DNA from: Escherichia phage OLB145
Sequence record: MH992123.1
Direction: 5' to 3' (one strand)
DNA length: 64,000 nt
Positions 4,548-4,562 of this stretch are shown piece by piece; the stretch's first letter is position 1, and each line of letters starts with the position of its first letter. The notes beneath the pieces were generated by a model. It saw only the letters and a list, made by a program, of their open reading frames with translations, was not told the origin of the DNA and searched no databases. A program made the translations under genes and the position numbers.

Positions 4548-4562
4548 AGCTGCTCCGCAGCT
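4548..4562 (+). promoter_or_regulatory. Hairpin AGCTGC-TCC-GCAGCT, candidate N4-type virion-RNAP early promoter (P3-like)
   Basis: 6-bp stem, 3-nt loop, same ATAAG and CTCCGC/TTTTGG context as the 558 site; 40 nt upstream of the RNAP II small-subunit gene. Confidence 0.45.

What the first reader, a model, noticed from the sequence alone, without database searches (positions are those of the whole stretch)
4548..4562. Second conserved hairpin upstream of the RNAP II genes
AGCTGC-TCC-GCAGCT shares the flanks ATAAG and TTTTGG with the 558 site, so the two form a small promoter family. It would place the phage RNAP II genes under virion-RNAP control, as in N4. It could alternatively act as a weak terminator for the upstream early block.
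Basis: partly seen in the sequence, partly recalled or inferred. Interest (0 to 1): 0.45.

Follow-up and report, generated by a model that had tools for sequence, protein, structure and literature searches.

The report
Known phage N4 early promoter P3
The hairpin is real, but it is the long-known third early promoter (P3) of coliphage N4, read by the RNA polymerase injected from the virion to switch on the phage's second RNA polymerase genes, so it is ordinary for this phage.

Summary
The window is Escherichia phage vB_EcoP_3HA13, a strain of the species Enquatrovirus N4 (100% identical to MK931297, 98.5% to N4 itself). AGCTGC-TCC-GCAGCT sits at 4548-4562 as described. It extends to a 7-bp stem (4547-4563) and shares a 23-nt motif with the 558 site.

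The 558 site is N4 early promoter P2, and a third copy at 91-109 is P1. Both match published promoter oligonucleotides. A scan using only the experimentally defined determinants of virion RNA polymerase (vRNAP) promoters finds exactly three sites in the 70,142-bp record, centred at 97, 566 and 4555. All lie on the + strand in the leftmost 6.5% of the genome. The literature describes three mapped start sites (P1-P3) there, so this site is P3, with predicted +1 at G4566, 38 nt before the RNAP1 start codon.

Orthologous hairpins precede the RNAP1 gene in Gamaleyavirus and Klebsiella N4-like phages, with compensatory stem changes. The cognate vRNAP gene, with all promoter-contact residues, is in the window.

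The terminator alternative is poorly supported: the T-run is short and not conserved, and the RNA fold is unremarkable.

Verdict: observation confirmed, interpretation supported, already known, low interest.

The parts
4545..4567 (+). Early promoter P3 of the N4-type virion RNA polymerase (positions -21 to +2, written on the non-template strand). The functional hairpin is on the template (-) strand: 5'-CCAAAAGCTGCGGAGCAGCTTAT-3'.
   Evidence: Exact motif match shared with P2. One of only three sites in the genome that meet the experimental determinants. Identical in N4 EF056009 at 4544-4569.
4547..4563 (+). Inverted repeat AAGCTGC / GCAGCTT with 3-nt loop TCC (4554-4556). The template-strand loop is 5'-GGA-3', that is -12A, -11G, -10G.
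   Evidence: Covariation of stem pairs across 25 promoters.
4566..4566 (+). Predicted transcription start (+1 G; template C), 11 nt downstream of the loop centre at 4555.
   Evidence: Inferred from the rule stated in PMC4496689: +1C on the template, eight nt downstream of -8. GG at +1/+2 is invariant in 25 aligned promoters.
4566..4603 (+). Predicted 38-nt leader of the RNAP1 mRNA, with Shine-Dalgarno GGAG at 4592-4595.
   Evidence: The leader start GGTNATTAA and the GGAG...ATG segment are conserved in the orthologues.
4604..5413 (+). gp15 / RNAP1, small subunit of N4 RNA polymerase II (269 aa).
   Evidence: Annotated RNAP1 in N4. 467 phage records hold homologues.
5461..6675 (+). gp16 / RNAP2, large subunit of N4 RNA polymerase II (404 aa).
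   Evidence: Pfam RNA_pol PF00940, E = 1.5e-13.
6681..6706 (+). Strong terminator-like hairpin (11 bp, then TATTTTTTT) that would end the P3 transcription unit.
   Evidence: RNA fold -19.8 kcal/mol, z = -3.97.
556..578 (+).
   Evidence: Its reverse complement CCAAAAGAAGCGGAGCTTC equals the P2 hairpin oligonucleotide in PMC13492108. Also.
87..109 (+). Early promoter P1 (GTTGC-TTC-GCAAC, -11A on the template); predicted +1 at G108.
   Evidence: Its reverse complement equals the P1 template printed in PMC13434306. Also.
4149..4529 (+). gp14, last gene of the upstream early block; its stop codon lies 18 nt before the hairpin.
34544..45064 (-). Gene for the virion RNA polymerase (gp50, about 3500 aa), the enzyme that reads the promoter.
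   Evidence: The polymerase domain aligns end to end with PDB 3Q0A/3C3L/2PO4. Contact residues K114, R119, W129, K267, K268, K849, K850, D901 and R904 are all present.

Best explanation
The site is early promoter P3 of coliphage N4, here in strain vB_EcoP_3HA13.

Mechanism, established for N4 P1/P2 and transferred here by sequence identity:
1. After injection of the left genome end, host DNA gyrase supercoils the DNA and the inverted repeat extrudes as a cruciform.
2. E. coli SSB melts the non-template hairpin and leaves the unusually stable template-strand hairpin (5-7 bp stem, loop 5'-GGA-3').
3. The injected virion RNA polymerase binds that hairpin through -11G (stacking on W129, H-bond to R119), -10G (K114), -9C/-10G (D901) and -8G (R904).
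4. It uses the AAAA spacer as a ruler and starts RNA with GTP opposite template C at window 4566.

The transcript carries gp15 and gp16 (RNA polymerase II) and probably ends at the hairpin at 6681-6706. P3 therefore gives the RNAP II genes their own entry point for vRNAP, independent of read-through across the three terminator-like hairpins downstream of P1 and P2.

Shown here: sequence identity, uniqueness, conservation, covariation, and presence of the cognate enzyme. Inferred: the start site, the biochemical steps at this particular copy, and the operon end.
For: - The window is 100% identical to MK931297 and 98.5% to N4 over 1.5 kb. The site is identical in N4.
- P1 and P2 are anchored to published oligonucleotides.
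[quoted passage not shown] Positions -17..+1 are conserved, with a GC-rich heptamer centred at -11 flanked by inverted repeats. The determinants are -11A/G, -10G, -8G and +1C.
- A scan with only those determinants finds exactly three sites in 64 kb on both strands (centres 97, 566, 4555), against a shuffle mean of 0.52. The remaining 6.2 kb of the record has none.
- All three share G(-17), GCT(-14..-12), CGC(-10..-8), C(-5), TT, T(-1) and G(+1).
- Orthologous hairpins lie 39-49 nt before the RNAP1 ATG in PhAPEC7, St11Ph5, ECBP1 and BaqKoxi. They lie about 290-300 nt before it in KP8 and Mimir124, with one extra ORF between. The KP8 copy is annotated 'early promoter' and published as P4, located before RNAP1 subunit B.
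- In 25 aligned promoters the five inner pairs are paired in every sequence, and 4 of 7 pairs change on both sides. The covariation score is 0.453, against 0.121 in shuffles and at most 0.085 in slid controls.
- Among 21 IMG/VR matches to AGCNGCTCCGCNGCTTNTGG, all 7 followed by a gp15 homologue, plus the KP8 contig cut off downstream (8 in all), have complementary Ns (T:A or A:T). The 10 non-complementary matches have no gp15 homologue downstream.
- The intergenic block is found in 52 phage records, nearly always at the RNAP1 gene.
- The cognate vRNAP, with all contact residues, is present.
Against: - The original mapping papers (Haynes & Rothman-Denes 1985; Glucksmann et al. 1992) are not held, so the label 'P3' rests on elimination plus the published description.
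- No transcript data for this strain were available.
- One 2026 paper (PMC13492108) speaks in its discussion of four promoters, P1-P4, while its introduction says three.
- A promoter directly before RNAP1 is not universal in Schitoviridae. None of this type was found there in the Achromobacter phages, Frozen, Zuri or EcP1.
Confidence: 0.93

Rival explanations
1. The hairpin works in the RNA as a weak intrinsic terminator or attenuator. It would end or reduce transcripts coming from P1/P2 through gp8-gp14, either instead of or in addition to acting as a promoter.
For: It sits 18 nt after the gp14 stop codon, and no other hairpin separates gp14 from gp15. The RNA would form a 7-bp GC-containing stem followed by U residues.
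Against: - It is not called by the terminator scan, which picks up six strong + strand hairpins in the same 9 kb.
- The RNA fold is -10.6 kcal/mol with z = -0.82 (39 of 200 shuffles fold as well). The hairpins at 494, 1080, 2523 and 6681 give z = -3.9 to -4.35.
- Only 2-4 T follow the stem. In KP8 and BaqKoxi the tail is GTGG, so the U-tract is not conserved while the hairpin, the loop TCC and the GG at a fixed distance are.
- The same motif occurs at P1, near the genome end, where there is nothing upstream to terminate.
Confidence: 0.1
2. The palindrome is a double-stranded operator for a dimeric phage or host DNA-binding protein that regulates the RNAP II genes.
For: It is a perfect 6-7 bp inverted repeat in an intergenic region directly upstream of a regulated operon.
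Against: - Across relatives the stem positions -16/-15 and -7/-6 change in pairs that keep complementarity rather than sequence.
- The loop is asymmetric and conserved (TCC).
- All copies have the same orientation as the genes and a fixed distance to GG. This fits a strand-specific hairpin signal and not a symmetric operator.
- The P2 version of the hairpin has been solved bound to vRNAP (PDB 3C3L, cited).
Confidence: 0.02
3. It is a chance inverted repeat with no function.
For: Short triloop hairpins with stems of at least 5 bp are common: about 10 per 4.6 kb on one strand in N4.
Against: - The 23-nt motif has 0 expected matches by chance and 2 observed.
- The determinant-based scan expects 0.52 and finds 3, all clustered and co-oriented at the left end.
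- The site is conserved, with covariation, in three genera.
Confidence: 0.01

Closest known systems
Coliphage N4 early promoter P3 (vRNAP start site mapped in vivo and in vitro by Haynes & Rothman-Denes 1985, as summarised in PMC4496689)
   Same: The 26-nt sequence is identical to N4 EF056009 4544-4569. It has the same position (6.5% from the left end), the same flanking genes (gp14 | RNAP1) and the same cognate polymerase.
   Different: Nothing in the element itself; the host genome is another isolate of the same species. The equation with 'P3' is by elimination, because the original figure could not be read here.
N4 early promoter P2 (structure solved bound to mini-vRNAP, PDB 3C3L; cryo-EM with full-length vRNAP in PMC13492108)
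   Same: It has the same heptamer GCTCCGC, the same 7-bp potential stem beginning AAG, the same TTTT spacer and the same GG start. All base-specific contacts (-11G, -10G, -9C, -8G, +1C) are identical.
   Different: Stem positions -16/-15 and -7/-6 are CT/AG here and AA/TT in P2. The literature reports these positions as free so long as they pair. P2 drives gp2 through a 10-nt leader, whereas P3 drives gp15-gp16 through a 38-nt leader with a Shine-Dalgarno sequence.
Predicted early promoters before the RNAP1 gene of other Enquatrovirinae (KP8 'P4', PMC6950046; unannotated copies in Gamaleyavirus genomes)
   Same: They have the same heptamer, loop, spacing and GG start, and the same gene context.
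   Different: The Klebsiella phages carry a compensatory T:A to A:T change in the stem and GT instead of TT at -2/-1. KP8 and Mimir124 have an extra small ORF between the promoter and RNAP1.
Hairpin early promoters of Pseudomonas phage LUZ7, mapped by ONT-cappable-seq (PMC9163698)
   Same: They are of the same kind: a stem of at least 4 bp with a 3-nt loop, read by an injected vRNAP, with G as the start nucleotide.
   Different: LUZ7 has nine early start sites and the TSS lies 13-14 nt from the hairpin centre, against 11 here. The sequence consensus and the cofactor (Drc instead of gp2) differ.
Rho-independent (intrinsic) terminators
   Same: A GC-containing stem-loop followed by T residues.
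   Different: The T-run is too short and is not conserved. The loop and closing pairs are sequence-conserved. RNA stability is not above background.

Membership tests
N4-type virion RNA polymerase (vRNAP) hairpin promoters | Inverted repeat forming a 5-7 bp stem with a 3-nt loop centred at -11 | tested here: met
   7-bp stem at 4547-4563 with loop 4554-4556. Both DNA strands fold into it.
N4-type virion RNA polymerase (vRNAP) hairpin promoters | Template-strand purine at -11, G at -10 and G at -8 (GC-rich heptamer centred at -11) | tested here: met
   The non-template heptamer GCTCCGC at 4552-4558 gives template -11G, -10G, -9C and -8G. The determinants are as listed in PMC4496689.
N4-type virion RNA polymerase (vRNAP) hairpin promoters | Template C at +1, eight nt downstream of -8, after a four-base spacer | tested here: met
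   TTTT at 4562-4565 is followed by GG at 4566-4567. GG is invariant in 25 aligned promoters.
N4-type virion RNA polymerase (vRNAP) hairpin promoters | Located in the first-injected left end of the genome and co-oriented with the early genes | tested here: met
   Position 4555 of 70,142 (6.5%), on the + strand like gp1-gp16.
N4-type virion RNA polymerase (vRNAP) hairpin promoters | Stem bases outside the contact positions are free to vary so long as pairing is kept | tested here: met
   4 of 7 pairs change on both sides, and the inner five pairs are 100% paired in 22 distinct sequences. The N:N positions are complementary in all 8 pre-RNAP1 copies from IMG/VR: 7 with a confirmed gp15 homologue downstream, plus the KP8 contig cut off downstream.
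N4-type virion RNA polymerase (vRNAP) hairpin promoters | The genome encodes the cognate vRNAP with the promoter-recognition residues | tested here: met
   The ORF at 34544-45064 (-) has a polymerase domain near-identical to PDB 3Q0A/3C3L. K114, R119, W129, K267, K268, K849, K850, D901 and R904 are present.
N4-type virion RNA polymerase (vRNAP) hairpin promoters | A vRNAP-dependent, rifampicin-resistant 5' end at +1 in vivo and in vitro; gyrase- and SSB-dependent hairpin extrusion | not testable with these tools
   Reported for N4 P1-P3 in the literature summarised in PMC4496689. No transcript data exist for this strain, and the primary papers are not held.
Intrinsic (rho-independent) terminators | A stable GC-rich stem-loop whose RNA folds clearly better than background | tested here: not met
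   -10.6 kcal/mol, z = -0.82, and 39 of 200 shuffles fold as well. Neighbouring terminator-like hairpins give z = -3.9 to -4.35.
Intrinsic (rho-independent) terminators | A U-tract (at least 5 T in 8) immediately after the stem, conserved in orthologues | tested here: not met
   The site is not called by the scan. The tail is TTGG after the 7-bp stem, and GTGG in KP8 and BaqKoxi.
Sigma-70 promoters | -35/-10 hexamers with 16-18 nt spacing upstream of RNAP1 | tested here: not met
   There is no match between 3354 and 4902 on the + strand. Overall the region has fewer matches than shuffles, 12 against 29.

The most novel reading that the evidence does not exclude
The P3 hairpin is bifunctional. 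As DNA it is the vRNAP promoter. As RNA in read-through transcripts from P1/P2 it acts as a partial terminator, pause site or processing site that insulates the RNAP II operon from the upstream early block. RNAP II dosage would then be set by P3 alone.
Probability: 0.1. Interest if true: 0.3.

Novelty: already known. Interest (0 to 1): 0.08.

Why it matters
N4's hairpin promoters are a textbook case of promoter recognition through DNA structure: supercoil-driven cruciform extrusion, SSB as an architectural activator, and a virion-injected T7-like polymerase. Identifying this site as P3 adds nothing to that picture. It only confirms that the first-stage reader recognised a genuine, functional regulatory element from raw sequence.

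There is practical value for annotation. Neither the 3HA13 record nor the N4 record annotates the three promoters. The same element is unannotated in the dozens of Gamaleyavirus genomes that share the intergenic block. A simple determinant-based scan recovers all of them with no extra matches of stem >=5 bp in the 70-kb record.

Tried and rejected
Literature
- I tried to read the primary papers that print the P3 sequence or map (PMC2639713, PMC20060, PMC1855362, PMC135322, PMC131081, PMC2396777). None is held.
- A full-text search for the P3 core on either strand found only the KP8 paper (for KP8's own P3) and an unrelated eLife paper.
- Two further keyword searches gave no statement of P3's coordinate.

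Looking for a fourth promoter ('P4', mentioned in the PMC13492108 discussion)
- The relaxed determinant scan of the window and of the remaining 6.2 kb of the record found none. The record carries only one copy of the terminal repeat.

Looking for the pre-RNAP1 hairpin in more distant Schitoviridae
- It is absent in the two Achromobacter phages, Erwinia phage Frozen, Pseudomonas phage Zuri and Enterobacter phage EcP1.
- Pollock has a different hairpin type (C-TTC-G), and the nearest copy is 743 nt upstream.
- The arrangement is therefore a trait of the subfamily Enquatrovirinae, not of the whole family.

Other
- The search for related loci with gp15 gave only 3 loci. Pfam finds nothing for gp15, gp14, gp1 or gp2.
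- Rejected as explanations: intrinsic terminator, sigma-70 promoter, symmetric operator and chance repeat. The reasons are given under the rival explanations.

Full report
**What is in the sequence**

One search shows ...GGCAATAAGCTGCTCCGCAGCTTTTGGTAATT... with AGCTGC-TCC-GCAGCT at exactly 4548-4562. It lies 18 nt after the TAA of the upstream ORF (4527-4529) and 41 nt before the ATG at 4604.
- The repeat can extend to 7 bp (AAGCTGC/GCAGCTT, 4547-4563).
- The motif ATAAGNNGCTCCGCNNCTTTTGG occurs exactly twice in 64 kb (556-578 and 4545-4567, both + strand), with none expected in 100 shuffles.
- Both DNA strands fold into the triloop hairpin, at -8.4 and -7.3 kcal/mol with z about -3.

**Where the window comes from**

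- Megablast of 4000-5500 gives 100% identity to Escherichia phage vB_EcoP_3HA13 (MK931297) at the same coordinates, and 98.5% to coliphage N4 (EF056009/NC_008720) offset by one base.
- 3HA13 is classified in the species Enquatrovirus N4.
- In N4 the flanking genes are gp14 and RNAP1 (gp15), followed by RNAP2 (gp16). The gp16 ORF hits Pfam RNA_pol.

**Identity of the motif family**

- The P2 hairpin oligonucleotide printed in PMC13492108 contains CCAAAAGAAGCGGAGCTTC. This is the exact reverse complement of window 560-578, so the '558 site' is early promoter P2.
- A third related site, GTTGC-TTC-GCAAC-TTATGG at 91-109, is the reverse complement of the P1 template printed in PMC13434306.
[quoted passage not shown] It adds that -17 to +1 is conserved, with a GC-rich heptamer centred at -11 flanked by inverted repeats, and that vRNAP specifically recognises -11A/G, -10G, -8G and +1C on the template.
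- I scanned with only those determinants: a triloop hairpin with a stem of at least 5 bp, and non-template -11Y, -10C, -8C and +1G. This finds exactly three sites in the window on both strands, centred at 97, 566 and 4555. All are on the + strand, and 200 shuffles give a mean of 0.52.
- The last 6.2 kb of the genome record has none. N4 itself gives the same three sites.

By elimination the site at 4555 is P3. On the template strand it reads 3'-...A(-12) G(-11) G(-10) C(-9) G(-8) T C G AAAA C(+1) C-5'. Every base-specific contact described for P2 is present, and the predicted start is G4566.

**The enzyme**

- The 3506-codon ORF at 34544-45064 (- strand) is the vRNAP gene.
- Its central 1106 residues align end to end with the solved N4 mini-vRNAP (3Q0A, 3C3L, 2PO4).
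- The residues the review names as promoter contacts (K114, R119, W129, K267, K268, K849, K850, D901, R904) are all there.

**Comparative evidence**

Homologues of gp15 occur in 467 phage records. I fetched the early regions of 12 relatives and listed all triloop hairpins.

| Phage | Genus | Hairpin | Loop centre to RNAP1 ATG |
|---|---|---|---|
| PhAPEC7, St11Ph5, ECBP1 | Gamaleyavirus | (A)GCTGC-TCC-GCAGC(T)-TTTGG | 41 nt |
| BaqKoxi | Klebsiella phage | AAGCAGC-TCC-GCTGCTT-GTGG | 39 nt |
| KP8 | Kaypoctavirus | AAGCAGC-TCC-GCTGCTT-GTGG | 286 nt, one small ORF between |
| Mimir124 | Gamaleyavirus | AGCTGC-TCC-GCAGCT-TTAGG | 300 nt, one small ORF between |

- The KP8 copy is annotated 'early promoter' in GenBank. 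It is published as P4, 'before the gene encoding RNA polymerase 1 subunit B'.
- The Klebsiella copies carry a compensatory T:A to A:T exchange in the stem.
- An ungapped alignment of 25 promoters (P1-, P2- and pre-RNAP1-type) has invariant GCT.CGC and GG at +1/+2. The five inner stem pairs are paired in all 22 distinct sequences, and 4 of 7 pairs change on both sides. The covariation score is 0.453, against 0.121 in shuffles and at most 0.085 when the partner is slid.
- An exact-pattern scan of IMG/VR with AGCNGCTCCGCNGCTTNTGG gave 21 contigs. All 7 matches with a gp15 homologue about 35 nt downstream, plus the KP8 contig, have complementary Ns (4 T:A, 4 A:T). The 10 matches with non-complementary Ns are unrelated sequences with no gp15 homologue downstream.
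- Blastn of 4500-4620 finds the block from the hairpin to the ATG in 52 phage records (Enquatrovirus, Gamaleyavirus and Shigella phages), nearly always at the RNAP1 gene.
- The intergenic alignment shows that conservation starts at the hairpin. It continues through GGTNATTAA at the start of the transcript to the Shine-Dalgarno sequence and the ATG.
- The arrangement is not universal. No such hairpin precedes RNAP1 in two Achromobacter phages, Frozen, Zuri or EcP1. Pollock uses a different loop and closing pair.

**Mechanism**

The following is established for N4 P1/P2 and transferred here by identity.
1. Gyrase-driven negative supercoiling extrudes the cruciform.
2. EcoSSB melts the non-template hairpin but not the template one, whose GGA loop is stabilised by a sheared G:A pair.
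3. vRNAP binds the template hairpin, which unlocks its active site.
4. It initiates with GTP at +1.

What is inferred for this copy: the start at G4566, a 38-nt leader with GGAG at 4592-4595, and a transcription unit of gp15-gp16 ending at the strong hairpin at 6681-6706.

P1 and P2 are each followed by a strong terminator-like hairpin after one gene (494-513 and 1080-1101), with another at 2523-2548. P3 therefore plausibly guarantees RNAP II synthesis without read-through of three terminators. This last point is inference.

**The terminator alternative**

- The site is not called by the terminator scan, which does call six strong + strand hairpins in the first 9 kb.
- Its RNA fold is unremarkable (z = -0.82, against -3.9 to -4.35 for the others).
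- The T-run is 2-4 long and becomes GTGG in KP8 and BaqKoxi, while the loop, the closing pairs and the GG are conserved.
- The same motif at P1 has nothing upstream to terminate.

A minor attenuating effect on read-through RNA cannot be excluded without 3'-end mapping. I give it 0.1.

**Limits**

- The primary papers that print P3 are not in the held library, and no held paper contains the N4 P3 sequence. The label therefore rests on elimination and on the published description.
- From memory only, I recall the 1985 and 1992 figures showing P3 with this sequence. I do not count that as evidence.

**Verdict**

The element is a member of the N4 vRNAP hairpin-promoter family on every sequence criterion that could be tested. 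It is already known, and interest is low.

Noticed in passing
window 108-120 and 577-594: The transcripts predicted from P1 and P2 both begin, exactly at +1, with an inverted repeat. P1 gives GGACA-UGU-UGUCC (-5.8 kcal/mol) and P2 gives GGAUG-AAGUAAUG-CAUCC (-6.4 kcal/mol). The P1 one recurs in KP8, Gamaleyaviruses, Achromobacter phages (GGGUA-UGU-UGCCC, with a compensatory A-U to G-C change) and Zuri (GGGCA-TGT-TGCCC). The P3 transcript has no such 5' hairpin. Its function is unknown; RNA 5' stability, RNA displacement or a second DNA hairpin are possibilities.
   Followed up: partly
window 577-590: The annotated start codon of gp2 (587) is only 10 nt from the predicted P2 start (577). It has no Shine-Dalgarno sequence and lies in the loop of the 5' hairpin. 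A two-codon mini-ORF, ATG-AAG-TAA (579-587), overlaps it. The same 10-11 nt layout with GGATG at +1..+5 is kept in seven relatives. An in-frame ATG at 686 with a strong GGAGAG lies further downstream, so the true N-terminus may deserve a check.
   Followed up: partly
window 1101-1215: There is no vRNAP-type promoter between the terminator-like hairpin after gp2 (1080-1101) and gp3, or anywhere before gp3-gp14. These 12 genes would have to be expressed by read-through of the P1/P2 terminators or by another polymerase.
   Followed up: no
window 32-43: [quoted passage not shown]
   Followed up: no
whole record MK931297 (window plus L037): PMC13492108 says 'three early promoters (P1, P2, P3)' in its introduction and 'four early promoters (P1-P4)' in its discussion. 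Only three motif matches exist in the 70,142-bp record, which holds a single copy of the terminal repeat. In virion DNA a second copy of P1 in the right terminal repeat would be a candidate fourth site; this is inference and was not tested.
   Followed up: partly
L014 (Escherichia phage Pollock) 67, 688, 1507, 1559, 3834; L013 (Pseudomonas phage Zuri) 95, 742: More distant Schitoviridae carry their own repeated triloop hairpins in the early region. Pollock has NNNNC-TTC-GNNNN followed by ..TGG. Zuri has G(G/A)(T/C)GC-TGC-GC(A/G)(C/T)C followed by ..TTGGGCA. These look like lineage-specific vRNAP promoter consensus sequences and are not annotated.
   Followed up: no
window 5425-5461: The mechanical ORF for RNAP2 starts at ATG 5425 (416 aa), whereas N4 and 3HA13 annotate 5461 (404 aa, the size given in the literature).
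   Followed up: no
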